Origin: a virus
Virus record (IMG/VR): IMGVR_UViG_3300022744_000001
Span: 2,022 to 66,021 of that record
Length of the DNA stretch: 64,000 nucleotides
Direction: 5' to 3' (one strand)
The notes under the pieces are model-generated. The model was given only the letters and a program-made list of their open reading frames with translations, searched no databases and was not told the DNA's origin. The position numbers were made by a program, and so were the translations under genes. This document shows positions 19,325-39,036 of this stretch, in pieces; position 1 is the first letter of the stretch; each line of letters begins with the position of its first letter.

Positions 19325-19381
19325 GTTGTGCACGGTGTGCGGTTGTACTGAGTGTGCAAGCGGCCCGGTGTAGAGGGCTCC

Positions 19382-20095: not shown

Positions 20096-20116
20096 TCTTT
20101 CGTTGCCCCGCCTCGA

Positions 20117-20593: not shown

Positions 20594-20602
20594 CCTAGCG
20601 CC

Positions 20603-21220: not shown

Positions 21221-21241
21221 ACTACCTGTCGCCCGCCCTGG

Positions 21242-22999
21242 GTGATGGACCTCGTACTCCGCGTCGCCTCTCACTTCCTTGTCGGCGGTTTCATCCCCGA
21301 CAAGTTCTTCAAGGCCAAGACGGCCGAGCTGAAGAAGCTCATGCTCACCCCGGCCGGGATGCCCGACGTGACCTCGTTCGAGATTCACGACCGGGTCATC
21401 CCCTTCTACAAGAAGTTCGAGCAGGAGTTGCTCGAGTTCGGGGTGCACCGCTTCGCGGAGGAGTCCATCCGCAGTCGGTTCGAAACCATGCGAGGCATGG
21501 CGGAGAAGATCGCCGAGGGGGCAGCCGGGTTCCACAAGGCCACGAACCAGTTCCCTCCTCGCGGCCCCAAGACCGAAGTCCTGACATCCCTCGAGATGGC
21601 GGTACGAGGCGCCTACGGGGAGAAGGTCAAATATCTCGGGCACGCCTTCAAAACCCAGTGGTTCATCGACGGTGGCCAGCTCGAGGCTTTGGCTGACCGC
21701 CTTTTGAAGAAGGCCACGCCCGCAGAGCTTGGCGCCTTGGAGAGCGCTTCGAACGACGACTTCCGCTCCTCTGTTCTTGACCTCAAGTACGGGTTCTTGA
21801 AGCGAGTGAACGCGGAAGCCGCGGCGCTCAAGCTGGTCAAGAAGACCAAGATCACCTGGGACCCCTTCCAGCGCATCGAGATACTTCGTGCTGCGCTCGA
21901 GGCCAACTACTCGGACAAAGCGGACATGGCGCCTACCGAGTTCGACCTGTTCGGAATGAAGATCGTGGTCAACGACCAATCCGTGGACCAGGACCAGGTC
22001 AATAAGTACGTCGGCTACCTCAAGGAAGCCTACGCTCGCCTCAAGGCCAAGGGGTTTGCCAAGGTCTGGTATGGCACCGTTCTCATCGACTGCCAGCAGT
22101 GCGGGGGCGTCAACTACAACGACGGGGGCGAGGTCGGGGGCCACTACAACATCGGGAAAGACTGGGTGAAGATCTTCGAACGCCCCGGTCCTTTCATCGT
22201 GAAGTTGATGGCTCACGAGCTGGGGCACCGGCACTGGTTCAAGGGCATGTCCTCGGAGCAGCGAGCCCGGTTCAACTCCCTGGTCCGCACGCACGAGGGT
22301 CGAAACCCAAAGAAGGCTGAGGCCAAACTCATCCCTCTCTCCACCGTGGTGAAGCGTCGAAGCACCCTGGACGAAGTTCTCAACCCGCTTGCCAAGGCTC
22401 TCGACCAAGCACTCAAAGACGCTGAAGCACAACGGTTCGACAAGGAGAAGGCCAGGGAGCTTCGGTCTTTCGTCCGCGGGGACGCCCAAGCCCTTTCGAG
22501 GCTGTACCAGTTGGGCTCGAACATGGTCGAGCGGAACGGGGACCTCTACCAAAGCCGTGAGTCACTCCAGCTCGGAACCGAGTTCAGCAAGCTGCTCATG
22601 GATGTGGATGCCGAGTTGGTAGACAAGCTCAACGAGATCCTCAACACGAGCTTGGACTTCAATGAGTCAATCGAGTTCTGGGCGGGCCACTTCCTGACCC
22701 AAACAAAGAAGCTGCACGAGCTGGGCGAGCAGTACCTCATGGCCACGATGAAGGGGCACAACGAGACTGCCAAAATCGAGGCAGAGAAAGCCAAAACCGA
22801 GATCGACACGGCTTGGGGTGCCGACCCCCGCCAAGTCATGCCTGTCTCGGACTACGGCTCATCCAACATCGATGAGGCATTCGCCGAGGTGTTCATGAAG
22901 TACGTCATGGGCGACGACATGAATCGAGACCAGCTCGAGTCGTTCAAGTCTGTGTTCGCCTCGACTGAGGAGTACGACGACCACGACTTCGACGACTAG
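21242..22999 (+). CDS. large hypothetical protein with HExxH motif
   Basis: 585 aa. Contains VKLMAHELGHRHWF. TAG stop. No other family features recognised. Confidence 0.6.
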   Translation: MMDLVLRVASHFLVGGFIPDKFFKAKTAELKKLMLTPAGMPDVTSFEIHDRVIPFYKKFEQELLEFGVHRFAEESIRSRFETMRGMAEKIAEGAAGFHKATNQFPPRGPKTEVLTSLEMAVRGAYGEKVKYLGHAFKTQWFIDGGQLEALADRLLKKATPAELGALESASNDDFRSSVLDLKYGFLKRVNAEAAALKLVKKTKITWDPFQRIEILRAALEANYSDKADMAPTEFDLFGMKIVVNDQSVDQDQVNKYVGYLKEAYARLKAKGFAKVWYGTVLIDCQQCGGVNYNDGGEVGGHYNIGKDWVKIFERPGPFIVKLMAHELGHRHWFKGMSSEQRARFNSLVRTHEGRNPKKAEAKLIPLSTVVKRRSTLDEVLNPLAKALDQALKDAEAQRFDKEKARELRSFVRGDAQALSRLYQLGSNMVERNGDLYQSRESLQLGTEFSKLLMDVDAELVDKLNEILNTSLDFNESIEFWAGHFLTQTKKLHELGEQYLMATMKGHNETAKIEAEKAKTEIDTAWGADPRQVMPVSDYGSSNIDEAFAEVFMKYVMGDDMNRDQLESFKSVFASTEEYDDHDFDD

Positions 23000-24189: not shown

Positions 24190-27100
24190 TCAGGCCGGTA
24201 CATGGGGCATGATCCACCAGTTGGTCCCGTCGCAAGCTGCATGGAATCCTTGGCGCCCAGATGCCCCGAATGCAACACCGGTAGTGGCCAAAGTTCCGTT
24301 GATGTTTCCGGAGCTGGATTTCAATGTGAAAGTGTTGCTATCCGTGGTGGTCTTCATGAGTGTAAGAGAGTGTCCACCGCTACTAGCAGGTGCAGGCAGC
24401 TGAATGTTTGCGATAGCTCCGCCTGATGTGTCGATCATAGTAAACGCGCCAGAAGACAGAGTTCCGCTGCCTCCGAGTGAGTCTACCTTTGAAAGAATGA
24501 TGGCTCCATACCCAACGCCGAACCCGGACCCGGGCCGACGCCCCACATAGAGGTCTACTGAGTTTGTGGTTAGAACTGCGGTGCCTGCTGCTGGGGCGAT
24601 AACCACTGCGCCGTGGTCGCCAGAGCCAGCAGGGGCGCCCGTGGTCAGCGTGATGTCTCCGCCGTTCTGGTTGCCGCCGACAGCCGAAGTTGCTGTGATG
24701 TTGACCGCGCCGCCGACCCCAGAAGTGGCTGTGGTGCCCGCAGAGATATTTACGGTGCCACCAACACCATTGGCGTTGTTGGCGCCTCGGACCGTGACCG
24801 AGCCAGCGGTTCCAGACCCGGTTGAGACACCGCCTGCGATAGTGATGCTTCCACCATTTTGGTTGCTTCCAGCAGCTGCACCCGCGGTAACGACGATGGC
24901 GCCACCTGTGCCTGAACCGCTAGCAGCACCAGCAGTGATAGTGACTTGGCCGCCAGCCCCCGAGGTTGAACCGCCAGCCCCCGCAAGGAGCAGAGCAGTA
25001 CCTCCGCTACCTGTAGCGCCTCCAGCTCCCGCACGAAGGGACGCGCCACCTCCCCCAGAAGAGCCTCGGCTGCTGCCTGCGGTGAAACTGATATCTCCAC
25101 CGGCGCCGGACGTAGCAGAAGCATTCGCGCTGCCTCCTGTAGCGGTGAAGCTACCGCCGTTGCCGCTACCAGTGCCGCCGGTACCTCCAGTGAAGGTAAA
25201 GGAACCGCCGACACCAGTTTGACCAGCTCCACTCGAGGCCGCTCCCGCGTTGAATGTGAAGCTTCCGCCGTTGTTGGCGCTCAAGCTTCCACCGCTGCCG
25301 CCAGTGAAAGTGATCGAACCGCCAGAGCCGCTCGATGTGCTGCCACAAGTGAGGGCGATGGAGCCACCAGCACCCGATGTTGAAGCGCCCGCAGTGATTT
25401 GAAGGGCTCCGCCAGCACCAGAGGTAGAACCGCCCACGCCTGAGAACAGCTGGAGAACAGCACCTGCTCCCGTTGCGCCCGAGGTACCGGGTTGAACCAG
25501 AAGGGCGCCCGCCGCCGAAGCACCGAAACCATCACCGGTTCGAATCGTGGTGGTTCCGCCAACCGCCGACGAACCGCCAGAGACGGCATCCGCCCCCTTG
25601 ATGGTTACAGAGCCTGCTGTGCCGCCGTTAGTCGGGGAGCCACCCGTGATGGTGATTGCACCACCAGCTTGAGTGGTACCTACGCCCGCTCCGCCCGTGA
25701 TGGAGAGGGCTCCGCCAGCACCAGACGTCGTAGCTGCACCACCCTGGAGAGAAAGGGTGCCTCCAGCTCCAGAAGTGGCACCACCAGGACCGCCTTTGAC
25801 GACTACCGAGCCGCCCGTGTTGGTACCTCCAGGAGTGCCGCCTTGGATGGTGACTGTGCCACCGTTACCCGCGGCAAGAGAGGTGCCTCCGTTGATGTTG
25901 AGGGCACCACCAGCACCGGTCAGGCCCCCGGTACCTCCCTGTGCTGTCAGGGAGTACCCAGTTCCAGCTCCGACAAGATCGGCAGGTTTGATAGTCGGGG
26001 AGGTGCCAGTGGTAACAACCACCCCGCTATCAATCAATGCTGTAGCCGCCGAGCTACTCCAGACGGGGACCCCGTTGGTGTTCCCAGAACCTGGGCCTGT
26101 GACCCCGCCCCCACCTCCGGTTCCTCCAAGAGGGAGCACTCGCCACGCGTTGCTGGTGTAGTCCCGCACTAGCAACGCCGCAGAACCACCAGTCAGGGAG
26201 TAATCGGTTGCCGAAGGGCAAATAAGCCGATTGAATGCAGACGATCCAGCATCTTGGTGTTTGAGGGTCAGTGTCGTACTGGAGCGGTTTACAAGGAAAC
26301 GCTGTGAGTAGGACAGGTCGAGGTCAGTGTCGCGGAAGAAGCCCGTAACGGTTGCACCCGAAGTGACCGCATCAAAAAAGATCGTCCGCGCAAAACGCCA
26401 CTTGTAGATGTCTCCAAGCTTGTAGTCGTTGTTGGTGCCGCTGACCGAGACCGACGCGGTCTGCTCGATGGAGGGGTAAGTGAAAAGGTTGTCACTCGTC
26501 CCGCCAAAGTTGTTGTTCGCGAACTTCGAAGCGTTGTTGTTCGTTGCGTCGGTAGTGACAGGATTGTTGAACAACACGATTGAGGCCGGGGCACCGTCGT
26601 CAACCAAGTACCCAGAGGTTCCGACGTTCGCGTTGAAGATCTGAAGGTACCCTCCGTTGGTAATGAATGGGTACCCTGTGATACCTGCCAACCAAGTGCT
26701 TGCTGGGAATTCACAATAGACGTCGAGCGATCCGCCATTGCCTGCATTAATCCACGAAGACGTTGCGGCCCCATCGGTGTAGAGCTGGGAAAATCTCCCC
26801 AAGGTAATCGAGGGGTAATCGCTGGGGCTCATCGTATAGAGGGCCCCAGACGTCTTGTGGTTGACCATCACTACGTTTTCGATTCGACGAGGCAGCTTAA
26901 CGATGACCGCGGGGTCATAGAAGTTCATGACCGCTGTGCCGAGAGGATCTGTTGACGAGCGGCCAACGATCTCACAGTCCGTGAAGTCAAAGGAGTTGCT
27001 ACCGCTAAGGGGTACATTCGTAAGCAGCGTGATTCGACACGGGCCAGGGTGCCTTGCTGCAAGAAGCAGAGCCATGTCGTTATACGTGTTGCCCGAAGGT

Positions 27101-27192
27101 GAGGCTCCCGAGTCAAACACGAAGTCAGCCACCACGATTTCCTCGAAGGTGTGCCCAGCGGCGCTCGACAAAACTGGATAGCGATTCGACAT
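24190..27192 (-). CDS. glycine-rich repeat fibre/tailspike-like protein (1000 aa)
   Basis: A ~370-aa non-repetitive N-terminal region is followed by ~500 aa of degenerate GGxG/GAGG repeats (for example GGTGGLTGAGGALNINGGTSLAAGNGGTVTIQGG). The C-terminal domain is distinct. Confidence 0.65.
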   Translation of the reverse strand: MSNRYPVLSSAAGHTFEEIVVADFVFDSGASPSGNTYNDMALLLAARHPGPCRITLLTNVPLSGSNSFDFTDCEIVGRSSTDPLGTAVMNFYDPAVIVKLPRRIENVVMVNHKTSGALYTMSPSDYPSITLGRFSQLYTDGAATSSWINAGNGGSLDVYCEFPASTWLAGITGYPFITNGGYLQIFNANVGTSGYLVDDGAPASIVLFNNPVTTDATNNNASKFANNNFGGTSDNLFTYPSIEQTASVSVSGTNNDYKLGDIYKWRFARTIFFDAVTSGATVTGFFRDTDLDLSYSQRFLVNRSSTTLTLKHQDAGSSAFNRLICPSATDYSLTGGSAALLVRDYTSNAWRVLPLGGTGGGGGVTGPGSGNTNGVPVWSSSAATALIDSGVVVTTGTSPTIKPADLVGAGTGYSLTAQGGTGGLTGAGGALNINGGTSLAAGNGGTVTIQGGTPGGTNTGGSVVVKGGPGGATSGAGGTLSLQGGAATTSGAGGALSITGGAGVGTTQAGGAITITGGSPTNGGTAGSVTIKGADAVSGGSSAVGGTTTIRTGDGFGASAAGALLVQPGTSGATGAGAVLQLFSGVGGSTSGAGGALQITAGASTSGAGGSIALTCGSTSSGSGGSITFTGGSGGSLSANNGGSFTFNAGAASSGAGQTGVGGSFTFTGGTGGTGSGNGGSFTATGGSANASATSGAGGDISFTAGSSRGSSGGGGASLRAGAGGATGSGGTALLLAGAGGSTSGAGGQVTITAGAASGSGTGGAIVVTAGAAAGSNQNGGSITIAGGVSTGSGTAGSVTVRGANNANGVGGTVNISAGTTATSGVGGAVNITATSAVGGNQNGGDITLTTGAPAGSGDHGAVVIAPAAGTAVLTTNSVDLYVGRRPGSGFGVGYGAIILSKVDSLGGSGTLSSGAFTMIDTSGGAIANIQLPAPASSGGHSLTLMKTTTDSNTFTLKSSSGNINGTLATTGVAFGASGRQGFHAACDGTNWWIMPHVPA

Positions 27193-28518: not shown

Positions 28519-29820
28519 ATGGCCATCGGGTTAACTGACATTCTCGTTGCGCTTGGCAACTTCCCGCTGCTCGAGGACATCTTCTTGAAGGGGGGTTTTC
28601 GGGCGGTAGATAACCCCGAAGCGAGAGACGACATTGACCCCAGCATGCAGAAAAGCGGGATGCTCGTTTGGGTGGAGTCCGAAGGGAAGCTCTACCAAAT
28701 GGCAGAAGGGTGGGTTGAGGTCTCTCTTGGGCCAGGCAACGGCTCTACTAACACAGTCCCCGTTTGGTCAAACCCCTCGAACACTCTGGCAAACAGCACA
28801 GATTCGATCGGGGCGGTTAGGTTAGGCTCAAGTGCCGGACAAAACATCATCGTACAACCCACAGCATCCCTTGATGCTGGAGGTGCGAACGTAGAGGTCA
28901 ACGGAGGGGCGGGCGGGCCGACTTCCAATGGAGGTTATGCCTTACTTTACGGCGGTGCTGGTGGGGAGACATCTGGAGATGGCGGCAACGCCTATGTGGC
29001 AGCAGGCGATGCGACCACCGAGGGTCACGGCGGGTACGTTACAATCAATGGTGGTTATGCCGAAGGCACTGACAAAAACGGCGGAAGTGTTCATCTTGAA
29101 GGCGGGCTCCCAACTGGACTCGGGTCACCTGGGAGTATATCGCTCCAAGCGGCGGGCAACACTTCAACAGTTGGCGGCAACGTTGTCCTTAGTGTTGGAG
29201 AGGGCTCGTCCGCCGCTAATGATGGTACCGTACTAATTGCTACCGTAGGAAACTCCAGTCGCGCAGCCCGTCTTCAGTTCCTTGGGAGTAACACTAACCC
29301 CATCAGCATCAAAGCCCCGGCAACGGTCACCACCTACGAGATGACGCTTCCTAGCTCCCAAGGCGGAGCAGGTACCGTTCTGACCAACGATGGTAGCGGC
29401 GGTTTGACTTGGTCCGCTGGTGGCGGAGGCATGGGGGACTATCAGATTAACGCTTCTGTAACGTCCCCTGACGCCACTCCCTTGACGGTTCACACTTACA
29501 CGGACCCAGTGAACACTGATCGTGCCATTATTTGCTATGACATTTTAGCGACGGCGATTGGGCCTTTCGGGAACCGCTACGCGTCGTTCAAAATCAATGC
29601 AGTGTTCGAAATGGACGCCATTTCCGAAGTGATCCACCCTCGAGAAGTCACATACCTAAACGGCCCTGTTCGGACAAACCCCGCTTGGAATGTGCAGTTT
29701 GACATCGTGGGGGCTGACATCAATCTTCAAGTGGTTGGCGAGTCCAATGGTACCGAAGGAACACGATGGCGGATCGTCGGGTTCATTACTCGCAGCGGCT
29801 TCACGTTCTCCGAGGCGTGA
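28519..29820 (+). CDS. glycine-rich tail-fibre-like protein (433 aa)
   Basis: GGAGGPTSNGGYALLYGGAGGETSGDGGNAYVAAGD repeats resemble those in 24190..27192. Also contains ISIKAPATVTTYEMTLPSSQGGAGTVLTNDGSGGLTWS. Confidence 0.6.
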   Translation: MAIGLTDILVALGNFPLLEDIFLKGGFRAVDNPEARDDIDPSMQKSGMLVWVESEGKLYQMAEGWVEVSLGPGNGSTNTVPVWSNPSNTLANSTDSIGAVRLGSSAGQNIIVQPTASLDAGGANVEVNGGAGGPTSNGGYALLYGGAGGETSGDGGNAYVAAGDATTEGHGGYVTINGGYAEGTDKNGGSVHLEGGLPTGLGSPGSISLQAAGNTSTVGGNVVLSVGEGSSAANDGTVLIATVGNSSRAARLQFLGSNTNPISIKAPATVTTYEMTLPSSQGGAGTVLTNDGSGGLTWSAGGGGMGDYQINASVTSPDATPLTVHTYTDPVNTDRAIICYDILATAIGPFGNRYASFKINAVFEMDAISEVIHPREVTYLNGPVRTNPAWNVQFDIVGADINLQVVGESNGTEGTRWRIVGFITRSGFTFSEA

Positions 29821-30262
29821 TGAGCTTCGATAGCACGTCGAGGAATCCGACGTTGTAGAGCGCGTTGGGTCGTCGCTCCTGGACGACCCGAATGCACTCC
29901 TCCCCGGTCATGCCCGTGAGCATGTGCAAGGCCAGGGCACTCACGAGCCCACTACGGTTCCACCCCATCTGGCAGGTGACCAGCACCGGTCTCTTGGCTT
30001 GGAGGGCCAGGGTGACGCCCCGAGCCCCCTTTACAGCGATGTGCAGCTCCCGCTCCGTGATGGGGCGCTCTTGGTCCTCGTTTGGGGCGTAGATGACCTC
30101 GAGCCCAGGGAACCGCTTCTCCGGGGGCTGGTTCTCTTTGGCGCAGAGAACGAGCACCTTGAACCCCACGGAAGCCAAGTAGCTCCCCTCGGGGGGCTTG
30201 GAGCCTTGCCAGAGGCCAGGGTGGATTTCGTTGACATCGAGCCCTGCGGGGTAAACCTTCAT
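29801..30262 (-). CDS. dual-specificity/tyrosine-type protein phosphatase (CX5R)
   Basis: Active-site loop VLVTCQMGWNRSGLVSA fits C-X5-R-S. 153 aa. Confidence 0.7.
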   Translation of the reverse strand: MKVYPAGLDVNEIHPGLWQGSKPPEGSYLASVGFKVLVLCAKENQPPEKRFPGLEVIYAPNEDQERPITERELHIAVKGARGVTLALQAKRPVLVTCQMGWNRSGLVSALALHMLTGMTGEECIRVVQERRPNALYNVGFLDVLSKLITPRRT

Positions 30263-30874: not shown

Positions 30875-31156
30875 ATGCATGCAGGGGAAGCAAATCCGGT
30901 AGGTCGTGAACCGGCCATTGAGCGGGCGATACGCTTCTCCTTTGGCAGGGATGGCTCTCGCGCACAAGCAGCACTCCCAAGGCTTTTTGGTGATGGTCCG
31001 GGCCCAGAGGACTCGGACAGTGCAGCCCTCGACGGTCAGGTTGGAGAGGTAGGAGGTCCCGGGGAGGAACTCCTTCTTGTTCGTGATTGAGACCACAGAG
31101 TAGGTTTGGCACAGAACCGGTGTCAGTGTCACCGATGCGTGATGCCCCCGCCCCAC
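30857..31156 (-). CDS. hypothetical Cys-rich protein (start uncertain)
   Basis: 99-aa ORF containing CCLCARAIP...CFPCMH. Its N-terminal ~20 nt overlap the divergent ARH gene, so an internal start is possible. Confidence 0.35.
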   Translation of the reverse strand: MGRGHHASVTLTPVLCQTYSVVSITNKKEFLPGTSYLSNLTVEGCTVRVLWARTITKKPWECCLCARAIPAKGEAYRPLNGRFTTYRICFPCMHKDESG

Positions 31157-32049
31157 TTCTTGGTCAAGCCATCGCTGATGCCCTGGGTATGCCGTTCGAG
31201 TTGTGTGGTCCCGAAGATCCCAAGTTGAAGGACTGGGATGGGCAGACCTACCACTCGAGCGAGTACCACAAGCTCATGCCAGGGCAGTGGTCCGACGACA
31301 CGATGATGGCCAAGCTCCTGGCCGAAAGCCTTCTCCAGGTGGGCGGGTATGACCCGGAGAACGCAGCCAAACGCTACCTGGGTTGGTACAAGAGCGGGGA
31401 CCACCGGGGGATGGGGACGGCGACCAGGACCGCCCTCGGTCGCCTGGACGAGGGCAAGGATTGGTCGGAGTCCGGAGTCGAGAACGCCCAGGGGAACGGG
31501 ACCGCCATGAGGGCGATCCCTCTCGGGGTTTTCTTCCGGAACCGTCTCGACCTCCTCGTCGAGGCTGCAAGCTTGGACTCTCACATCACCCATCGGTCGG
31601 ACGAGGCTGAGGAGGGGGCGATCGCAATCGCCCTGGCTGCCGCATACCTCTACCGTGGCCTCCCGAAGGATGAGCTTCCAGAGGCTATCTCGAGGCGGCT
31701 CAAAGACGGCCCCATCAAGACCGGAGTCATGAAGTGCGAGTTCTACCTTCGCACCGGCGGAGTCTCGGTTGGGGAAGCACTCCGAGTCATTGGCACGAAA
31801 CCCCACGTGGTCCAGACCGTGCCCGCTGCCCTGGCCGCGTTCCTTTTGTCCAAGACCTACCTGGAGGCTGTCCAAGCTGCGATTCGGGCCGGGGGCGATA
31901 CGGACACCACAGCCGCCATCGCCGGTGGCCTGGCGGGCATCTACTACGGTCGCCAAGCCATCCCCGCGGACCTCATCCCTCCGCTCGAGGCCGCAGACGC
32001 CCTCAGTGGGCTCGACTTCCAACTCAACACCCCTGCCCGTGAACTCTGA
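31135..32049 (+). CDS. ADP-ribosylglycohydrolase (DraG/ARH family)
   Basis: GQAIADALGMPFE, QWSDDTMM, GNGTAMRAIPLG and GGDTDTTAAIAGGLAG blocks. ATG 31135 chosen within the track ORF that starts at 31087. Confidence 0.85.
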   Translation: MRDAPAPLLGQAIADALGMPFELCGPEDPKLKDWDGQTYHSSEYHKLMPGQWSDDTMMAKLLAESLLQVGGYDPENAAKRYLGWYKSGDHRGMGTATRTALGRLDEGKDWSESGVENAQGNGTAMRAIPLGVFFRNRLDLLVEAASLDSHITHRSDEAEEGAIAIALAAAYLYRGLPKDELPEAISRRLKDGPIKTGVMKCEFYLRTGGVSVGEALRVIGTKPHVVQTVPAALAAFLLSKTYLEAVQAAIRAGGDTDTTAAIAGGLAGIYYGRQAIPADLIPPLEAADALSGLDFQLNTPAREL

Positions 32050-32062
32050 GACCCTCCGCTGC

Positions 32063-32290
32063 ATGGGGCTGGGGATTTGCCCCCAGTGCAAAGGGCCAGC
32101 TCGGAATGAGCCACCCTCGGGCTACTTCTGGTGTCCAAAGTGCAAGCGAATTCTTTGGCATTTGCGCCGGATAGCGGCTACCACTGCCAAATCGGAGGGT
32201 TCGGGGGATGCTGGAAGACAACAAGCTGAGGATTTTCGAGAGGTTCTCGGTAGACAAGGAGCTTCCGAAGTTCCAAAAGCCGAAGGGTGA
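32063..32290 (+). CDS. possible small zinc-ribbon protein
   Basis: ATG 32063. CPQCKG...CPKCKR. The 3' third overlaps the next gene, so its extent is uncertain. Confidence 0.3.
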   Translation: MGLGICPQCKGPARNEPPSGYFWCPKCKRILWHLRRIAATTAKSEGSGDAGRQQAEDFREVLGRQGASEVPKAEG

Positions 32291-33047
32291 GAACGTAGAA
32301 CTCGTTCGAGCGGACGGGTCCACGGACCACGCCGTGATTTACGAGTTTGCGATCGACCTGGTCAATAGAGGCTGGACAGAGGGCATCGAAATCACGGAAG
32401 CCGTCGCGGACCGGATTACGTTGCGGGGCCGAGTCAAAGGGTTTCGTGGCTGGCTCCGGAAGCTGCTCCATTGGGTCACCCAGAGGCCGAGCATCACCAT
32501 CCCTCAGTTCTTCACCCTCGTGAAGGGTTCCGTGAAGGACCTCGAGATCGTGGAGGCGCGTGCCAAGGGGTACGAGGAGGCCATCTCCAACGCCCGCAAG
32601 TTCGGCCAGAAAGCCCTCGTTGAGGAGCTGACACAGAACCTGGTTGCGGTCCGGCTCGAGGCGCACTTGGTCACGATGGGGCTGACCAAGTACCTGACCG
32701 AGGACAAGCTCGTCGAATTCGTGAAGCTGTGCCCGAAGGGGCTCCGGCTCGACTGGATCGCGAACTTTGGGCGTCGCATCCCCACAGAGCTGCTCGAGCG
32801 CAAGCTCGCCTGCGACGAACGGTTCCTCTTCGACAACTACGTCATCCTCCACTACGACCCCAAAGGCAAGAGCTGGAAGGAAACGGAAGCCGAGAAGGCC
32901 GCCCGCAAAGACCCGATCCTCTTCGGGGTCATGAAGGGGCGCCGCCAGCTCTACTACCTCGGGGACTGGGTCGATGAGCTTTGCGACCTCACGCTCGACC
33001 AGATTGCAGATACGATTGGGAAGAGTGCGATCGGGGAGCTGAAATAA
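32208..33047 (+). CDS. hypothetical protein (279 aa)
   Basis: ATG ORF with TAA stop and good coding-like composition. No family recognised. Confidence 0.6.
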   Translation: MLEDNKLRIFERFSVDKELPKFQKPKGENVELVRADGSTDHAVIYEFAIDLVNRGWTEGIEITEAVADRITLRGRVKGFRGWLRKLLHWVTQRPSITIPQFFTLVKGSVKDLEIVEARAKGYEEAISNARKFGQKALVEELTQNLVAVRLEAHLVTMGLTKYLTEDKLVEFVKLCPKGLRLDWIANFGRRIPTELLERKLACDERFLFDNYVILHYDPKGKSWKETEAEKAARKDPILFGVMKGRRQLYYLGDWVDELCDLTLDQIADTIGKSAIGELK

Positions 33048-33051: not shown

Positions 33052-33729
33052 GTGGACAGTAGCGCAGAAGAGTTTGAGCAGATAGTGCGCGAGAGTTTAT
33101 CCGCTGCACAAGCCCTACGAAAACTGGACCGGGCTACCGTGGGGTCCAACTACGACTGGGTGCGTCGGGAGGTTCAACGGTTTGGGCTCGACACATCTCA
33201 CTGGGGAAGAGCTGGTGCTCGCAATACAACCCCGAACCTCGATGAGGTTTTCATTGAGAATGGTGCCTACTCAACAGGTCTTGTTAAGACGATCATTCTT
33301 CGTGAACGTTTACTCCCGGAGCTGTGTGCTGAGTGTGGATTAGGACCCTCCTGGAGGGGTAAGAAATTAGTCCTCCGCCTTGACCACAAAAACGGGAAAC
33401 GAAGTGATCACCGGCTCGGAAACTTGCGTTTTCTGTGTCCGAACTGCGACTCTCAAACAGAGACATTTTGCGGTCGCAACAAACGTCTCCCAGCCAAGCT
33501 GTGTAAATGCGGGGTGGCAATAGGGCAGCAGTCCGCAGCTTGCAGGTCGTGCACGGCAAAAAGCAGAAAACCAACAACGAAAATCGTTTGGCCTCCATTC
33601 GAGGAAGTGCAGGAAAGGGTCAAAAACACCTCCTTCCTTGCCACAGCCAAACATCTTGGTGTATCAGATAATGCAGTTCGGAAGTTTTTACGCTCCCGTG
33701 CCCGAGTGGTTGAAGGGGCAGGATTCTAA
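33052..33729 (+). CDS. HNH homing-endonuclease-like protein
   Basis: LRLDHKNGKRSDHRLGNLRFLCPNCDSQ is an HNH core. N-terminal ...GLDTSHWGR and C-terminal LGVSDNAVRKFL are HTH-like. Visibly lower GC than the flanks. The last 38 nt overlap the tRNA. Confidence 0.75.
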   Translation: MDSSAEEFEQIVRESLSAAQALRKLDRATVGSNYDWVRREVQRFGLDTSHWGRAGARNTTPNLDEVFIENGAYSTGLVKTIILRERLLPELCAECGLGPSWRGKKLVLRLDHKNGKRSDHRLGNLRFLCPNCDSQTETFCGRNKRLPAKLCKCGVAIGQQSAACRSCTAKSRKPTTKIVWPPFEEVQERVKNTSFLATAKHLGVSDNAVRKFLRSRARVVEGAGF

Positions 33730-33783
33730 ATCCTTGGGGCCGCAAGGCCCACGCCGCAGGTTCGAACCCTGCCGGGAGCGCCA
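33692..33783 (+). tRNA. suppressor tRNA, anticodon CUA (reads UAG), serine-type architecture
   Basis: 92 nt: GCUCCCG-UG-CCC-GAGUGGUUGAA-GGG-G-CAGGA-UUCUAAA-UCCUU-[20-nt variable arm G-GGGCC-GCAA-GGCCC-ACGCC]-GCAGG-UUCGAAC-CCUGC-CGGGAGC-G-CCA. The acceptor and T stems pair perfectly. Confidence 0.8.
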
Positions 33784-33784
33784 G

Positions 33785-34111
33785 TCAAGAGCGTAAAGCG
33801 AGAGGAAGCCGCTGAACAAGTCGTTTTGCGGCGGGCTCGAGCGCGATGGCGGTCACCTCGTTGTCTCGGTCCGGCTCCCGAAACAAGCTGACCCTGAACC
33901 CTCGACGGGTCGCATCCTCCGCGAGACGAGTCAGGGAAGGCTCATCAGGGCTCTCGAGGAGAGCGAGGTAGTTCGACTGCTCGAACCACTCCCGCTCGAC
34001 CTCCGGGTGCTCCGCGACGAACCCTCGCATGGCGTGAGCTGCTTGGACAGCTTGCGCGCCAAGAGGGAGGTCGCTTCGGACAATGAGGTAGAGTTTGTCA
34101 CCCATCCTCAT
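33785..34111 (-). CDS. Pth2-like peptidyl-tRNA hydrolase family protein
   Basis: 108 aa. KLYLIVRSDLPLGAQAVQAAHA... and ...NEVTAIALEP follow the PTH2 pattern (vvR.DL...aQ..HA ... T.lai.P). Confidence 0.6.
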   Translation of the reverse strand: MRMGDKLYLIVRSDLPLGAQAVQAAHAMRGFVAEHPEVEREWFEQSNYLALLESPDEPSLTRLAEDATRRGFRVSLFREPDRDNEVTAIALEPAAKRLVQRLPLALRS

Positions 34112-34535
34112 CGTCGGTACCTTCCTCGTCTTCGTCGTCGCTCAGGTGCAACCCAACCCTGTGAATGACCTCCTCTGGAATCCCGGCCGCCCGGAGCTTC
34201 CCGTCCCAGTCAGCGTAGGGGCGGTCCCCGCCACCCCACTTGCGCTCGCCCACGAAGAACATGGGAGGGTCACTGTGGATTTTCCCGTGAGGGGTCTCAA
34301 CGTAGGGCCAGATCTCCAAGGGCGAGTCGTTGCAGCACCCGCAGTTGTGCCGCATGTCGAACTTGGTCACCTGGCTGTTCACTGAGGCTGAGCAGTAGGC
34401 GACCTTGTTCCAGCGGCCGACATGCTTGCGCAGATCAGGGTAGAGTTCGGCCAGTTTGGCCAACCTCTCCGCTTCCTGGTCCTTTGCCCGGGCTTCCCCC
34501 CGGGCTTGTTGGATCTCTTCAGCGATGGTACCCAT
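34098..34535 (-). CDS. hypothetical protein (145 aa)
   Basis: ATG ORF with a coiled-coil-like N-terminus, a CGCC motif and an acidic tail. Overlaps the next gene by 14 nt. Confidence 0.55.
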   Translation of the reverse strand: MGTIAEEIQQARGEARAKDQEAERLAKLAELYPDLRKHVGRWNKVAYCSASVNSQVTKFDMRHNCGCCNDSPLEIWPYVETPHGKIHSDPPMFFVGERKWGGGDRPYADWDGKLRAAGIPEEVIHRVGLHLSDDEDEEGTDDEDG

Positions 34536-34538
34536 GGC

Positions 34539-34991
34539 TCAGGCCGCCTTCCGCTCAAACTTCGGGCGGAGACCCGCAAGCCACATACCGATGTCGTCCT
34601 CGGAGATAGCGGCTCCGCCCCCGAAGCTCTGGAGAAGGCTGTGGAGCGCTCGAGGGCTCAAGACCTCCGCGGTCGTTCGCTCGATTTGGACATACTCGAG
34701 GCCCCGGAGCATTCCGAGCAGCACCAGGTGCAGTCGGATCCAGTACCGGCCATCCCGCTTCTGGTCCCACAGGCGAGACCGGTCGTAACCGGTCTCGGGG
34801 CGGCGGTAGGGTTTGAGGGCTCGTTTGCCGTTGACCCTCCTACCATCCTCACCCCGCTGGGAGCGGAGGGTGGCGATGGCGTCGGCCGACCCGGGCGTCC
34901 AAGCCAGCTCTTGGAGCTGGCGGCGGATCCCCATCTGGGCGTCGGTCAGGGTCTTGAGTTCAGTGCGCAGCTTCTTGATAGTTTCCTTCAT
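34539..34991 (-). CDS. hypothetical protein (150 aa)
   Basis: ATG preceded by GGAGGAAATC on the reverse strand. No family recognised. Confidence 0.55.
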   Translation of the reverse strand: MKETIKKLRTELKTLTDAQMGIRRQLQELAWTPGSADAIATLRSQRGEDGRRVNGKRALKPYRRPETGYDRSRLWDQKRDGRYWIRLHLVLLGMLRGLEYVQIERTTAEVLSPRALHSLLQSFGGGAAISEDDIGMWLAGLRPKFERKAA

Positions 34992-36461: not shown

Positions 36462-36956
36462 ATGATCAAGTACCTCAAGGGCGACGCTACCGAACCCCAG
36501 GGCGCCGGAACCAAGTTCATCATCCACGTGGTCAACGACCGAGGCGGTTGGGGCGCAGGTTTCGTTTTGGCCCTCTCCCGCAAGTGGAAGGGGCCCGAGC
36601 AGTCGTATCGGAAGTACAGCCCACTCACTCTCGGCCAGATTCAGGTGGTGCCCGTCGAGCGACATCCGGGAGGCGTCCCGTACCTCTACGTCGTGAATAT
36701 GTGTGCCCAAACGGGGTACGGCCGCGGCAACCGGAACCTCCACCGTACCAACGAACCCGACGACCAGATCCCGTTGCGGTACGACGCCCTCCAGACGTGT
36801 CTTGAGCAAGTTGCAGAAGAGGCCACTGTCCTCGGCGCTGCAATCCACGCTCCTCGGTTCGGGTGCGGGCTCGCCGGGGGAAAGTGGGAGCTTGTCGAGC
36901 CCATCATTCAAAGTGCCCTTGAAGACCTTCCCGTTTTCATCTACGACCTGCCGTGA
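36462..36956 (+). CDS. macro-domain protein (ADP-ribose binding/hydrolase type)
   Basis: FIIHVVNDRGGWGAGFVLALSRKW... and ...APRFGCGLAGGKWELVEPII fit the viral/phage macro-like pattern. Confidence 0.7.
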   Translation: MIKYLKGDATEPQGAGTKFIIHVVNDRGGWGAGFVLALSRKWKGPEQSYRKYSPLTLGQIQVVPVERHPGGVPYLYVVNMCAQTGYGRGNRNLHRTNEPDDQIPLRYDALQTCLEQVAEEATVLGAAIHAPRFGCGLAGGKWELVEPIIQSALEDLPVFIYDLP

Positions 36957-37841: not shown

Positions 37842-38243
37842 ATGCTCACAGCTATCCTGCTCCTCTGCATCGCCATCGTTGCCATGGTGGGCGTTCTGAT
37901 CTTCGAAACGGCCAACCTCCGAGGGGCGTTCCACGAGATGCAGAAAGCTCTCCAAGACGCCGTTCGAACGAGTGAAGAACTCGACGCGAAGGAGGACGAA
38001 GAGGGGGATCAGCTCGAGATTGAATGGCGAGACAGGTTCAACGAGATGCAAGACACGCTGAACCGCCTCGAGTTGAACCTGGGGCGGGTCAATCAGCGTG
38101 TGGCCCGGCTACAAGCCAAGTCAAAGGCGGGCAGCACGAAGAAGAAGGCCAAGTTCGACCTCATCCAAGGGGGCCAGAAGAACCCCCAAGAGGAGCGTCC
38201 GCAGGTGATTCAGCTTCACCCTGAGCCTCGAGACCCAAGCTGA
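37842..38243 (+). CDS. membrane-anchored coiled-coil protein
   Basis: N-terminal TM segment MLTAILLLCIAIVAMVGVLIF followed by a charged helical region. Confidence 0.55.
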   Translation: MLTAILLLCIAIVAMVGVLIFETANLRGAFHEMQKALQDAVRTSEELDAKEDEEGDQLEIEWRDRFNEMQDTLNRLELNLGRVNQRVARLQAKSKAGSTKKKAKFDLIQGGQKNPQEERPQVIQLHPEPRDPS

Positions 38244-39036
38244 AAATCTTGCTCACTTGGGGGTTGCCGTAATCAGAATGCCCCGTGTAGACGGTGAGGT
38301 TTTCAAAATGCTTGTACTCCCCCGGTGAGTGCGTGTGCCCGCAGAGCACGGTGAACTTGACCTCGGGGAACAGGGACGCGACGTCCGCCAACATGGCGCC
38401 GAACGTGAGGTTCGTGAACCACGGGAGCCAGTTCTTGTCGGAGATGCGGTCCCGGTAAAAGCAGGACTCCCGAAAGGGCGGGATGTGCGTTGCAAAGAAA
38501 ACCTGCTTGTACTTCCGAGCCGCGGCGACGAGGTTCGGCCGAGCTTCCTCAGCCATTTGCTTGGCCACCTCCCTGCACTTTTCGATGTGCCCGTATCGCT
38601 CCTTGTCTCGAAACTCCTCGATGACCTTGAAGTCGTTCATGATGACGTTCGACCCTTCGGGGTCCCCCGAACGAGCGTCGTACCAACCCCCGTGGCCAAC
38701 GAGCGCGATTTCCGGAGTCAGCTCCACGACGCCCGCGGCGTTCAGCCAGGAGAGGTTCTTCACGGCTTGGCTGTCATGGAGAACCTGTGCGATCAGGCGA
38801 CCCTTCTCGAGAGAGCCGTTATAGAAGTCGTGGTTTCCGAGCACGAAATAAACGGGGATCTCAACCTTCGATGCGAACAAGACCAGGTTGAAGGCGAGTG
38901 AGGGGCACTCCGCGATATCCCCGGTCATCACGATGGCGTCCGCTTGGGTCAGTCTGCGAACGTACTTCGCGAACTTCGCGGTACCCGCGGGAGGTAGGAA
39001 ATTGAAATGGGGGTCCGTGATCCAGGCGAGGCGCAT
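38161..39036 (-). CDS. calcineurin-like metallophosphoesterase
   Basis: WITDPHFN, VMTGDIAE, VLGNHDF, GHGGW and LCGHTHSPG motifs. The 3' ~80 nt overlap the convergent gene. Confidence 0.8.
   Translation of the reverse strand: MRLAWITDPHFNFLPPAGTAKFAKYVRRLTQADAIVMTGDIAECPSLAFNLVLFASKVEIPVYFVLGNHDFYNGSLEKGRLIAQVLHDSQAVKNLSWLNAAGVVELTPEIALVGHGGWYDARSGDPEGSNVIMNDFKVIEEFRDKERYGHIEKCREVAKQMAEEARPNLVAAARKYKQVFFATHIPPFRESCFYRDRISDKNWLPWFTNLTFGAMLADVASLFPEVKFTVLCGHTHSPGEYKHFENLTVYTGHSDYGNPQVSKIFSLGLEAQGEAESPADAPLGGSSGPLG

What the first reader, a model, noticed from the sequence alone, without database searches (positions are those of the whole stretch)
33052..34111. Serine-type amber-suppressor tRNA (anticodon CUA) between an HNH endonuclease gene and a Pth2-like peptidyl-tRNA hydrolase gene
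Seen: 33692-33783 folds as a complete 92-nt class II cloverleaf. The acceptor pairs 7/7, the T-stem 5/5, and the D region GAGUGGUUGAA, G73 and a 20-nt variable arm match bacterial tRNA-Ser. The anticodon loop is UUCUAAA, so the anticodon is CUA and decodes UAG. Established: E. coli supD is tRNA-Ser(CGA) mutated to CUA, and some large phages carry suppressor tRNAs tied to stop-codon reassignment of late genes. Context: the tRNA sits at the 3' edge of a lower-GC HNH gene, whose TAA stop is formed by the anticodon loop itself. On the other strand it abuts a Pth2-like hydrolase. Inference: this is a mobile translation-rewiring cassette. It could serve read-through of selected TAG-terminated or TAG-interrupted genes elsewhere in the genome, or perturb host termination, with Pth2 clearing peptidyl-tRNA by-products. 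Caveat: within this window TAG is clearly used as a normal stop (for example at 2788, 5558, 6903, 19324, 22999 and 54729).
Basis: partly seen in the sequence, partly recalled or inferred. Interest (0 to 1): 0.8.

Follow-up and report, generated by a model that had tools for sequence, protein, structure and literature searches.

The report
Phage amber-suppressor tRNA paired with Pth2
A huge (about 448 kb) standard-code phage carries a real serine-like tRNA that reads the UAG stop codon, and it belongs to a gene pair (stop-reading tRNA plus a divergent peptidyl-tRNA hydrolase) that recurs in dozens of large phages and that none of the papers I could search describes.

Summary
Window 33692-33783 (+) is a 92-nt class II tRNA with anticodon CUA, called by both ARAGORN and the Rfam tRNA model (52 bits). 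It overlaps the 3' end of an HNH endonuclease gene and lies 1 nt from a Pth2-fold gene.

New findings:
1. The Pth2-like gene and a UAG-reading tRNA form a conserved pair. Of 52 dereplicated phage loci with a Pth2-like homologue, 39 carry a CUA or UUA tRNA, never UCA. It is nearly always just downstream on the same strand. No other neighbouring gene is conserved. The pair also occurs in Mycobacterium phages Catera and Myrna and in Lak-B5.
2. The HNH belongs to a family that sits next to tRNA genes. Syntenic relatives have a class I stop-anticodon tRNA (CUA or UUA) at this spot in the opposite orientation and no HNH. The HNH plus class II tRNA therefore looks like a replacement cassette.
3. The D-arm is serine-type (101 of 102 cellular matches), but the acceptor stem is not.
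4. The window uses TAG as an ordinary stop, with no sign of recoding.

Likely mechanism (inferred): partial UAG read-through, with the hydrolase recycling dropped-off peptidyl-tRNA. The biological purpose is unresolved.

Verdict: a new variant of a known kind, of moderate to high interest.

The parts
33692..33783 (+). 92-nt class II tRNA with anticodon CUA (reads UAG), G73 and encoded CCA. The anticodon loop is UUCUAAA.
   Evidence: ARAGORN. Rfam RF00005 at 52 bits with the anticodon-loop alignment. Fold. The class II stop-anticodon family shows 15 of 26 pairs with compensatory changes and 95% of cells paired.
33052..33729 (+). HNH homing-type endonuclease gene (225 aa) with a C-terminal HTH. 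Its last 38 nt, including the TAA stop, lie inside the tRNA. It has lower GC than its surroundings.
   Evidence: PHROG 10822 HNH at 5e-42, with the match ending at about residue 215. GC 0.52. Homologues sit next to tRNA genes in most of 17 IMG/VR loci. The same overlap with a class II tRNA(UUA) occurs in L007.
33785..34111 (-). Divergent Pth2-fold protein (108 aa). It is the conserved partner of the stop-reading tRNA.
   Evidence: Pfam PF01981 at 44.4 bits. AlphaFold pLDDT 95.9. Foldseek TM 0.75-0.79 to solved Pth2 structures. The family invariants are Q23, H26, E79, P80 and D81, and the canonical GK lysine is absent. Linkage to CUA/UUA tRNAs.
34098..34991 (-). Two upstream genes of the Pth2 operon (145 aa at 34098-34535 and 150 aa at 34539-34991). 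They are syntenic in the closest relatives and their function is unknown.
   Evidence: ORFs. No Pfam or PHROG hits. Homologues lie upstream of Pth2 in L053, L024, L037 and L208. A sigma-70-like site lies at 35127-35100 on the minus strand.
32208..33047 (+). 279-aa gene lying between the ADP-ribosylglycohydrolase gene and the HNH gene. It is absent from this position in relatives L208, L053 and L024, so it is part of the inserted segment.
   Evidence: ORF. PHROG 10081 at 1e-17. Synteny comparison.
31087..32049 (+). ADP-ribosylglycohydrolase gene. It is the syntenic anchor that bounds the tRNA site in relatives.
   Evidence: Pfam PF03747 at 246 bits. Orthologues lie directly beside the tRNA in L208, L053 and L024.

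Best explanation
The feature is a functional UAG-decoding tRNA on a serine-like class II scaffold. It is encoded by a huge phage of about 448 kb that uses the standard code.

The tRNA is one half of a conserved two-gene module. The other half is the adjacent divergent Pth2-fold protein.

In the closest relatives, the same genomic slot (Pth2, then tRNA, then the ADP-ribosylglycohydrolase gene) holds a class I stop-anticodon tRNA (CUA or UUA) on the Pth2 strand. Here that tRNA has been replaced, in inverted orientation, by a segment carrying a 279-aa gene, an HNH homing endonuclease and a class II tRNA(CUA). The HNH reading frame runs into the tRNA. The HNH is a selfish passenger from a family that lives beside tRNA genes.

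Inferred mechanism. The tRNA is transcribed with the HNH gene and processed out. It is probably charged by the host seryl-tRNA synthetase, which does not read the anticodon. It then competes with release factor 1 at UAG codons, so some ribosomes read through to the next stop. The Pth2-like enzyme hydrolyses the peptidyl- or aminoacyl-tRNA species that this perturbation of termination produces, which keeps tRNAs available.

Shown: the tRNA, its anticodon, the conserved pairing, the Pth2 fold, the HNH-tRNA association and the standard-code usage of the window. Inferred: charging with serine, actual read-through, the hydrolase's substrate and the benefit to the phage.
For: tRNA and anticodon.

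Selection on the cloverleaf, including the long variable arm, across five class II CUA/UUA relatives: 15 of 26 pairs have double changes and 95% of cells are paired, against 34-53% for slid controls.

Serine-type D-arm: 101 of 102 cellular tRNAs with the exact 18-mer are tRNA-Ser. The A36-A37-A38 run and canonical T-loop are read directly from the sequence.

Module linkage:
- 46 of 58 IMG/VR Pth2-like loci carry a stop-anticodon tRNA.
- After dereplication, and with six cultured or reference phage loci added, the figure is 39 of 52. Of these, 38 of 39 are on the same strand, 36 of 39 are downstream, and none is UCA.
- Stop-anticodon tRNAs make up 47 of 179 tRNAs in these loci, against 1 of 71 in control loci (Fisher p = 5e-7).
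- No other gene family is shared by more than 8 of 53 loci.
- The closest relatives L208 (72% identity) and L209 (64%) each have a single tRNA in about 12 kb, and it is UUA, just downstream of Pth2.
- The pair also occurs in Catera, Myrna, Lak-B5 and LR745208.

Pth2 fold.

HNH-tRNA association and replacement. In L007 a 3' half of a class I tRNA survives 14 nt downstream of the HNH-linked class II tRNA.

Standard code: TAG ends 24 of 72 ORFs. Treating TAG as sense gives no TAG-specific coverage gain. TAG-separated same-frame ORF pairs are not in excess.
Against: No gene in the accessible 64 kb (plus overlapping loci) needs or visibly exploits UAG read-through. TAG-terminated ORFs have no nearer backup stops than TGA-terminated ones: median 33 versus 22.5 codons.

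The acceptor stem is not serine-like, and the variable arm has 5 unpaired 3' nucleotides, so serylation is uncertain.

The Pth2-like family lacks the lysine of the canonical GK motif and has a shortened DAGxT loop. It may therefore not be a conventional peptidyl-tRNA hydrolase.

In this window the pair is convergent rather than co-directional, unlike 38 of the 39 other loci that carry such a tRNA.

There are no expression, charging or activity data.
Confidence: 0.5

Rival explanations
1. Code-switch device. The tRNA exists to translate a set of late (structural or lysis) genes elsewhere in the 448-kb genome that contain in-frame TAG codons, as in TAG-recoded Lak and crAss-like phages. The Pth2-like enzyme would be an accessory to the code change.
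For: The same module occurs in recoded phages. Lak-B5 locus coverage rises from 0.46 to 0.83 when TAG is read as sense. The Pth2-like genes of L051 and L061 themselves contain an in-frame TAG. Suppressor tRNAs are tied to recoding of late genes in the literature (10.1101/2021.08.26.457843). Only about 14% of the contig is visible, and it is mostly non-structural.
Against: The genome is 60% GC and TAG ends a third of ORFs, whereas known recoding arises in low-GC phages depleted in TAG. There is no TAG-specific ORF gain and no TAG-interrupted genes in the window, including two tail-fibre-like genes of 1000 and 433 aa. Most module-bearing loci look standard-code, including the cultured Catera and Myrna. 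[quoted passage not shown]
Confidence: 0.15
2. Counter-defence or rescue at UAG. The tRNA occupies the ribosomal A site at UAG (and UAA for the UUA versions). This protects phage mRNAs from RelE-type ribosome-dependent mRNA interferases, or compensates for a shortage of release factor 1. The Pth2-like enzyme clears peptidyl-tRNA from ribosomes that stall anyway.
For: All 47 stop-anticodon tRNAs in Pth2 loci read UAG (CUA, or UUA by wobble) and none is UCA. RelE cleaves preferentially at UAG in the A site, RF1 competes with it, and RF1-deficient cells are hypersensitive (PMC2680264). PTH2 in jumbo phages has been interpreted as part of ribosome rescue after RNA damage (PMC7824862). The module is mostly found in standard-code phages.
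Against: This is purely inferential. No toxin or RF1 link is seen in the sequences. The anticodon bias can equally be explained by avoidance of the commonest stop codon. Read-through as a side effect would still extend a third of the phage's own proteins.
Confidence: 0.15
3. The Pth2-like protein is a dedicated deacylase or regulator of the suppressor tRNA. It would keep the tRNA uncharged or correctly charged until needed, so that the pair works as a switch rather than as a suppressor plus clean-up.
For: The gene-tRNA adjacency is tight and usually co-directional. The family has lost the canonical lysine but keeps an invariant Q..H and EPD set, which suggests an altered substrate or chemistry. 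Acceptor stems are identical between the window and L024, whose Pth2-like proteins are 65% identical.
Against: There is no evidence of tRNA specificity, and acceptor stems vary widely across the family. The similarity can be explained by common descent.
Confidence: 0.1
4. Passenger or decaying gene. The tRNA is merely a tRNA-Ser-like gene with a mutated anticodon, carried by the HNH element and without function.
For: It overlaps a selfish HNH gene of foreign GC. The anticodon stem has one mismatch. No read-through target was found.
Against: There is strong compensatory covariation in the class II family, with stop anticodons retained throughout. Stop-anticodon tRNAs keep their position next to Pth2 across phages ranging from 27 to 66% GC. 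The tRNA retains the canonical tertiary nucleotides and CCA.
Confidence: 0.05

Closest known systems
E. coli supD (serU tRNA-Ser with anticodon CGA changed to CUA), recalled from established genetics
   Same: A class II tRNA with a CUA anticodon, G73, a serine-type D-arm and C11-G24. The seryl-tRNA synthetase ignores the anticodon, so such tRNAs insert serine at UAG.
   Different: supD is a laboratory mutant of a cellular gene. This one is a natural phage gene whose acceptor stem is not serine-like (GCUCCCG). It has 5 unpaired nucleotides 3' of the variable stem, and it belongs to a family that alternates between CUA and UUA.
Suppressor tRNAs of stop-codon-recoded phages (Lak, crAss-like, Agate, Jade and others; 10.1101/2021.08.26.457843)
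   Same: A phage-encoded tRNA with a stop anticodon. Lak-B5 and other recoded members carry the same Pth2-tRNA pair.
   Different: Those phages are low-GC, depleted in TAG stops and have in-frame TAG read as glutamine. This phage is 60% GC, uses TAG as a normal stop and has a serine-like class II tRNA.
CUA or UCA suppressor tRNAs in standard-code jumbo phages XacN1 and Atu_ph07 (PMC5852040, PMC6102473)
   Same: Large, fairly high-GC, standard-code phages with suppressor tRNAs of unknown purpose and a peptidyl-tRNA hydrolase somewhere in the genome.
   Different: In XacN1 the suppressors lie in the terminal-repeat tRNA arrays. Its Pth2-like domain sits in a 279-aa protein with no tRNA nearby. 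No linkage was reported there.
Archaeal and eukaryotic peptidyl-tRNA hydrolase Pth2 (PF01981; PDB 2zv3, 3erj, 1q7s, 1xty)
   Same: The same fold (TM 0.75-0.79), Pfam membership, and the conserved RxDL...Q..HA and acidic motifs.
   Different: The loop carrying the GK lysine has a two-residue deletion, and the DAGxT loop is shortened. Sequence identity is 18-26%.
Free-standing homing endonucleases in phage tRNA gene regions (T4 SegB; T5 tRNA-region HNH nickases), recalled rather than tested
   Same: An endonuclease gene of foreign composition embedded among or next to tRNA genes. Here the family association with tRNAs is shown directly, and Catera has an HNH gene overlapping a tRNA.
   Different: Here the HNH frame ends inside the tRNA. 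The element appears to carry its own replacement tRNA with the same decoding function as the one it displaced.
'Code change module' of Jade phages (suppressor tRNA, aminoacyl-tRNA synthetase and release factor; 10.1101/2021.08.26.457843)
   Same: A suppressor tRNA physically clustered with a protein acting on translation termination or tRNA.
   Different: The partner here is a Pth2-fold protein, not a synthetase or release factor. The module is widespread in standard-code phages.

Membership tests
tRNA (Rfam RF00005) | Covariance-model score at or above the gathering threshold, with a full cloverleaf | tested here: met
   52 bits against a gathering score of 29, covering model positions 1-71. 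Acceptor stem 7/7 and T stem 5/5, with one non-canonical pair at 27-43.
Amber suppressor tRNA | Anticodon CUA in a 7-nt loop with U33 and a purine at 37 | tested here: met
   The loop is UUCUAAA. ARAGORN and the covariance-model alignment agree.
Amber suppressor tRNA | Aminoacylated and active in UAG read-through | not testable with these tools
   This needs tRNA-seq or acid gels and reporter assays.
Bacterial tRNA-Ser (class II) | Long variable arm, serine-type D-arm with the 20a/20b insertion, C11-G24 and G73 | tested here: met
   The variable region is 20 nt with a 5-bp stem. The exact D-arm 18-mer occurs in 101 tRNA-Ser out of 102 cellular tRNAs. G73 is read directly from the sequence.
Bacterial tRNA-Ser (class II) | Acceptor-stem identity pairs G2-C71 and A3-U70 (E. 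coli identity set, recalled from the literature) | tested here: not met
   The window has C2-G71 and U3-A70. The top-ranked tRNA-Ser matches listed all start GGA(G/A). These are the sequences printed; the full set of 101 was not inspected.
Bacterial tRNA-Ser (class II) | Variable-arm geometry with one or two unpaired nucleotides 3' of the stem | tested here: inconclusive
   The window has 5 unpaired nucleotides (ACGCC). The phage class II relatives have 4-5 (C-R-M-C). The effect on synthetase recognition is unknown.
tRNA-Pyl (ARAGORN's label) | 3-nt variable loop, small D-loop, one nucleotide between the acceptor and D stems, and a 6-bp anticodon stem (recalled) | tested here: not met
   The window tRNA has a 20-nt variable arm, a large D-loop, the two nucleotides U8-G9, and a 5-position anticodon stem.
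tRNA-Sec | 8-bp acceptor stem plus 5-bp T stem, 6-bp D stem and anticodon UCA | tested here: not met
   The acceptor and T stems are 7 and 5 bp, the D stem is 3-4 bp and the anticodon is CUA. The best clan match is RF00005, not RF01852.
Pth2 peptidyl-tRNA hydrolase (PF01981) | Pfam score above the curated cut-off, and the Pth2 fold | tested here: met
   44.4 bits against a cut-off of 23. Profile match to PDB 2zv3 at E = 5e-10. AlphaFold pLDDT 95.9, and Foldseek TM 0.75-0.79 to 2zv3, 1q7s and 3erj.
Pth2 peptidyl-tRNA hydrolase (PF01981) | Catalytic lysine of the GK motif. I recall this as Lys18 of S. solfataricus Pth2 and could not verify it in the held papers. | tested here: not met
   The family has a two-residue deletion at this point, and the aligned position is variable (A, Q, Y, S, L).
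Pth2 peptidyl-tRNA hydrolase (PF01981) | Conserved acidic residue of the DAG motif and the Q..HA motif | tested here: met
   E79, P80, D81, Q23 and H26 are invariant in both alignments, of 41 and 36 sequences.
Pth2 peptidyl-tRNA hydrolase (PF01981) | Hydrolysis of peptidyl-tRNA | not testable with these tools
   This needs an enzyme assay.
HNH homing endonuclease | HNH/zinc-finger core and family-level similarity | tested here: met
   PHROG 10822 at 5e-42 and PHROG 14736 at 6e-24. The sequence reads CAECG...LDHKNG...NLRFLCPNCD. There is a C-terminal HTH.
HNH homing endonuclease | Cleaves an HNH-free allele and is copied into it | not testable with these tools
   The evidence is indirect only. 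Syntenic relatives lack the HNH, and L007 keeps a remnant 3' tRNA half.
Stop-codon-recoded phage (TAG as sense, code 15) | In-frame TAG in conserved genes, TAG rare as a stop, and a coding-density gain specific to TAG as sense | tested here: not met
   TAG ends 24 of 72 ORFs. Coverage is 0.82 under the standard code, 0.87 with TAG as sense and 0.91 with TGA as sense. There are no TAG-interrupted genes. This applies only to the 64-kb window.

The most novel reading that the evidence does not exclude
The divergent Pth2-fold protein and the UAG-reading tRNA form a dedicated two-component device that acts at UAG codons, independently of genetic-code change. It could be a backup or bypass for release factor 1, or a counter-measure to A-site mRNA interferases such as RelE. 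It is spread among large phages of very different hosts. It is also itself a target for homing endonucleases that carry a replacement tRNA.
Probability: 0.2. Interest if true: 0.85.

Novelty: new variant of a known kind. Interest (0 to 1): 0.62.

Why it matters
[quoted passage not shown] Their presence in standard-code jumbo phages has had no explanation (PMC5852040).

This work shows that a UAG-reading tRNA is genetically coupled to a divergent Pth2-fold protein. The coupling holds across phages ranging from Mycobacterium phages Catera and Myrna to Lak megaphages and many uncultured huge phages. That gives a concrete, testable handle on the problem. The pair can be deleted or expressed in cultured mycobacteriophage-host systems.

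If the pair manipulates termination at UAG rather than changing the code, it would be a new way for viruses to tune or protect translation.

The serine-like class II scaffold may also be of practical interest as a natural amber or ochre suppressor chassis.

Tried and rejected
1. Near and distant DNA searches of the locus and the tRNA against INPHARED phages and IMG/VR found no close relatives. The only hit was a weak one to a Rhizobium phage tRNA.

2. A single-sequence scan for Pth2 relatives in IMG/VR found nothing. An alignment-based scan was needed.

3. Apparent 1000-aa and 433-aa genes, called by the source's gene caller but missing from my GC3-filtered ORF map, raised a suspicion of recoding. 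Both are uninterrupted standard-code ORFs of Gly/Ser/Thr-rich repeats.

4. High-GC3 in-frame extensions after several TAG stops turned out to be antisense of real genes. One example is the 57-aa gene at 62541-62714 (-).

5. A test for backup stops after TAG showed no enrichment.

6. A test for same-frame ORF pairs split by a single TAG showed no excess in the window or in the first 50 kb of Catera.

7. A search for a remnant of a displaced class I tRNA in the 32050-32207 spacer found none.

8. The idea that the anticodon is CUA because the HNH gene needs its TAA stop was rejected. In L007 the homologous HNH stops at a TGA in the anticodon stem, upstream of a UUA anticodon.

9. tRNA-Pyl and tRNA-Sec identities were rejected on structure.

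10. ORFs between the tRNAs of the 507-4239 cluster are not HNH homologues.

12. I could not retrieve the primary papers on Pth2 catalytic residues. The lysine assignment therefore rests on memory.
Full report
**1. The observation**

ARAGORN finds twelve tRNAs in the window. Eleven form a cluster at 507-4239 on the minus strand. The twelfth lies at 33692-33783 (+) with anticodon cta at position 35. ARAGORN prints 'tRNA-Pyl' for any CUA anticodon, so that label carries no information.

The Rfam tRNA model scores the element 52 bits against a gathering score of 29. It aligns the anticodon loop as UUCUAAA, so the covariance model and ARAGORN agree on CUA.

The single-strand fold gives:
- a 7-bp acceptor stem;
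- a 5-bp T stem with a GGTTCGAACC loop;
- a 5-bp variable stem capped by GCAA;
- discriminator G73 and an encoded CCA.

There is a C27-U43 mismatch at the top of the anticodon stem, and five unpaired nucleotides lie between the variable stem and the T stem.

- ORF 33052-33729 is an HNH endonuclease (PHROG 10822, 5e-42). The family match ends near residue 215 of 225, so the last ten codons and the TAA stop are simply the 5' half of the tRNA read as protein.
- GC drops to 0.52 across the HNH gene, against 0.62-0.65 in the flanks.
- ORF 33785-34111 (-) matches Pfam PTH2 at 44.4 bits, and its stop codon begins 1 nt after the tRNA.

**2. What genome this is**

The exact Pth2-like protein is encoded on a 448,224-bp metagenomic contig (ENA ERZ27252002). 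The window is a 100% identical piece of that contig. Near-identical copies occur in three other samples. This is therefore a huge phage.

The window is 59.8% GC. It carries replication and nucleotide-metabolism genes: a helicase, a DNA methyltransferase, dCTP deaminase and peptide deformylase. It also has two Gly/Ser/Thr-rich tail-fibre-like genes.

**3. Does the genome use TAG as a stop?**

Yes. In GC3-selected ORFs the stops are TGA 39, TAG 24 and TAA 9.

- Reading TAG as sense raises greedy ORF coverage from 0.82 to 0.87. That is less than the artefactual gain from reading TGA as sense (0.91).
- All apparent coding-like extensions beyond TAG stops overlap genes on the other strand.
- Same-frame ORF pairs separated by one stop are no commoner for TAG than for TGA or TAA.
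- TAG-terminated ORFs have no closer backup stops than TGA-terminated ones.

Nothing in the visible 14% of the genome needs amber read-through.

**4. Is the tRNA serine-type?**

Partly.

The 18-nt D-arm CCCGAGTGGTTGAAGGGG was searched exactly in one genome per bacterial and archaeal species. Of the 102 matches lying inside a called tRNA, 101 are tRNA-Ser (GGA 84, CGA 16, UGA 1). The long variable arm, C11-G24 and G73 also fit serine.

However, the top-ranked cellular tRNA-Ser matches listed all begin GGA(G/A). The window tRNA begins GCUCCCG, giving C2-G71 and U3-A70. These are positions that, from my recollection of E. coli identity studies, contribute to seryl-tRNA synthetase recognition. The five unpaired nucleotides 3' of the variable stem are also unusual.

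Serylation is plausible, because the synthetase ignores the anticodon, but it is not shown.

**5. The tRNA belongs to a family under selection**

Four other 91-92-nt class II tRNAs were found in huge-phage contigs: L209, L032 (the same contig as L007), L025 and L062. They share the D-arm and the overall layout but carry UUA anticodons. Their discriminators are either G73 or A73.

On the five-sequence alignment, 95% of cells pair in the cloverleaf, against 34-53% when partners are slid. Fifteen of 26 pairs show compensatory double changes, including four of the six pairs of the variable stem.

These are working tRNAs, not decayed copies. The only thing that never changes is that the anticodon matches a stop codon.

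**6. The main new result: a conserved Pth2-tRNA pair**

A profile of four Pth2-like proteins retrieved 58 IMG/VR loci. Most come from contigs of 100-530 kb, with GC between 0.29 and 0.64. Forty-six of them carry a tRNA with a stop anticodon within 5 kb.

I then dereplicated and added six loci from cultured or reference phages.
- 39 of 52 loci have such a tRNA. Of these, 38 are on the strand of the Pth2-like gene and 36 are downstream of it. By my reading of the 39 listed distances, the median is roughly 450 nt.
- The anticodon is CUA or UUA and never UCA.
- Stop-anticodon tRNAs make up 47 of the 179 tRNAs in these loci.
- In control loci the figure is 1 of 71 (Fisher p = 5e-7). The controls were HNH-homologue loci without a Pth2 hit, plus the window's own tRNA cluster.

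Often the stop-reading tRNA is the only tRNA in 10-12 kb. This is true of L053 and of the two closest relatives found through the protein database: L208 (72% identical Pth2-like protein) and L209 (64%).

No other protein family is shared by more than 8 of 53 loci. The linkage is therefore not a remnant of general synteny.

The pair is also present in:
- Mycobacterium phages Catera and Myrna. GenBank labels their tRNAs Arg and Ser. ARAGORN and the stem-pairing logic favour CUA with a 31-39 mismatch.
- Prevotella phage Lak-B5 (UUA).
- The uncultured 485-kb phage LR745208 (UUA).

It is absent around the more distant homologues in XacN1 and RsoM2USA.

Most module-bearing loci look standard-code. 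A few are clearly TAG-recoded: Lak-B5, L036 and L051. The Pth2-like genes of L051 and L061 themselves contain an in-frame TAG.

I found no paper in the searchable library that mentions this linkage.
- Jumbo-phage surveys note PTH2 and interpret it as ribosome rescue, without mentioning suppressors (PMC7824862).
- The recoding literature does not mention Pth2.
- The XacN1 and Atu_ph07 papers list suppressor tRNAs and hydrolases as separate items.

**7. The Pth2-like protein**

It has the Pth2 fold. AlphaFold gives pLDDT 95.9, and Foldseek gives TM 0.75-0.79 to archaeal and human Pth2 structures. A family profile hits PDB Pth2 chains at E = 5e-10.

The family keeps R12, D14, Q20, Q23, H26 and the EPD triplet at 79-81, either invariant or nearly so. 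It has a two-residue deletion exactly where canonical Pth2 has its Gly-Lys, and it has a shortened DAGxT loop.

From memory, that lysine is catalytic in S. solfataricus Pth2. I could not retrieve the primary paper to check.

The protein is therefore a member of the Pth2 superfamily by sequence and fold. Its chemistry or substrate may differ from the canonical enzyme.

**8. The HNH gene and how this locus was built**

Seventeen IMG/VR homologues of the HNH were retrieved. In most of them a tRNA gene lies on the same strand within about 0-120 nt of the end of the match, and the tRNAs are of many isotypes. In L007 the homologue is 53% identical and shows the same overlap with a 92-nt class II tRNA. 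There the frame stops at a TGA in the anticodon stem and the anticodon is UUA. The CUA anticodon is therefore not a by-product of the HNH needing a stop codon.

The syntenic relatives L208, L053 and L024 share the gene order 150-aa gene, 145-aa gene, Pth2-like gene, tRNA, then ADP-ribosylglycohydrolase on the opposite strand. They have a class I stop-anticodon tRNA (CUA in L024 and L053, UUA in L208) on the Pth2 strand and no HNH.

In the window, the space between Pth2 and the glycohydrolase holds a 279-aa gene, the HNH and the class II tRNA. All three lie on the opposite strand.

In L007 a 3' half of a class I tRNA lies 14 nt beyond the class II tRNA. It matches the L024 suppressor from the anticodon loop to the CCA end. 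This is direct evidence that the HNH-linked tRNA displaced a resident one.

The window tRNA has the same acceptor stem and discriminator as the L024 class I tRNA. An acceptor stem is an inverted repeat, so it could have served as the junction for an inverted replacement. That last step is conjecture, and no remnant was found in the window.

**9. How it most likely works**

Shown:
- a structurally sound UAG-reading tRNA;
- its conserved coupling to a Pth2-fold protein;
- a selfish HNH element attached to it;
- a standard-code genome context.

Inferred:
- The tRNA is co-transcribed with the 279-aa gene and the HNH gene, then processed out. No promoter or terminator consensus lies between them. 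The only sigma-70-like site in the region is upstream of the Pth2 operon.
- It is charged, probably with serine.
- It competes with release factor 1 at UAG.
- The Pth2-like enzyme recycles the aberrant acylated tRNAs that result.

I cannot say from sequence why a phage with TAG at a third of its stops would want this. Three alternatives remain open.
- Hidden TAG-containing late genes in the unseen 86% of the genome.
- Protection or rescue of ribosomes at UAG, against RelE-type A-site nucleases or an RF1 shortage. This would explain why only UAG-readers are found (PMC2680264).
- A regulatory deacylase.

**10. Verdict**

The feature is real. The HNH is an add-on rather than the core of the unit, and serine identity is only half supported.

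Suppressor tRNAs in standard-code jumbo phages, PTH2 in jumbo phages, and endonucleases among tRNA genes are each already known. Three things appear new. The first is the conserved Pth2-stop-tRNA pairing. The second is the class II serine-like CUA/UUA family. The third is the evidence that a homing element replaces one suppressor tRNA with another. I rate it a new variant of a known kind, with interest of about 0.6.

Noticed in passing
window 63014-63098 (+) and about 63180-63262 (+): Two tRNA-like elements that ARAGORN does not call. The first has acceptor GGAAGCG/CGCUUCC, a canonical T arm and an oversized anticodon-arm region, and scores 34.5 bits to Rfam tRNA-Sec (below the gathering score of 47). 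The second has a T arm plus a 3' acceptor strand. They may be intron-containing or otherwise aberrant tRNAs.
   Followed up: partly
window 19352-22999 (+): Four consecutive genes are in the same reading frame, separated by short in-frame spacers. They are dCTP deaminase, an unknown 158-aa gene, peptide deformylase and an unknown 585-aa gene. The first three end in TAA, the rarest stop in the window, and the last ends in TAG. The functions are unrelated, so this is probably coincidence. It is worth a look because close relatives carry UUA (ochre-reading) tRNAs.
   Followed up: partly
L082 3605-3678 (Mycobacterium phage Catera) and L083 3466-3537 (Myrna): The tRNAs just downstream of the Pth2-like genes are annotated in GenBank as tRNA-Arg and tRNA-Ser. 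ARAGORN calls CUA. They have a C-C mismatch at 31-39 (effectively a 9-nt loop). Myrna's also has a 4-nt D-loop and a single nucleotide between the acceptor and D stems.
   Followed up: partly
L051 2143-2454 and L061 5001-5324: The Pth2-like genes of these low-GC phages contain an in-frame TAG. In L051 it is at residue 90, inside the conserved C-terminal region. The module's own protein is therefore written in the recoded alphabet there.
   Followed up: no
L007 3729-3775: A 3' half of a class I suppressor-type tRNA, running from the anticodon loop to CCA (38 of 44 identical to the L024 tRNA). It lies 14 nt downstream of the HNH-linked class II tRNA(UUA).
   Followed up: yes
L111 (Stenotrophomonas maltophilia contig NZ_RAUX01000004.1): This is the only non-Ser cellular tRNA with the serine-type D-arm. 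It is an 87-nt class II tRNA with anticodon CGU (Thr), A73 and a T arm like the window tRNA. It may be a prophage-borne oddity.
   Followed up: no
window 24190-27192 (-) and 28519-29820 (+): Two long Gly/Ser/Thr/Ala-rich repeat proteins (1000 and 433 aa) with low GC3, so a GC3-based gene filter misses them. They look like tail fibres or adhesins. They share a ...GNTNGVPVWSS.../...GSTNTVPVWSN... motif.
   Followed up: no
window 29801-30262 (-), 31087-32049 (+), 36462-36956 (+), 38161-39036 (-): A dual-specificity phosphatase, an ADP-ribosylglycohydrolase, a phosphatase-family protein (PHROG 335) and a metallophosphatase surround the module. This cluster of reversal-type enzymes recurs in relatives L024, L053 and L208. 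L208 also has a weak AcrVA2-like hit.
   Followed up: no
window 507-4239 (-): A cluster of 11 tRNA genes (Arg x2, Ala, Glu x2, Thr, Asn x2, Lys x2, Tyr). One Asn(GUU) copy is 85 nt long instead of 75. The interspersed ORFs are not HNH homologues.
   Followed up: partly
L209 6331-7085: Between the Pth2-like gene and the class II tRNA(UUA) lie a 137-aa gene on the opposite strand and a 58-aa ORF immediately upstream of the tRNA. By eye the ORF's sequence looks like a ribbon-helix-helix protein. This might be a toxin-antitoxin-like pair.
   Followed up: no
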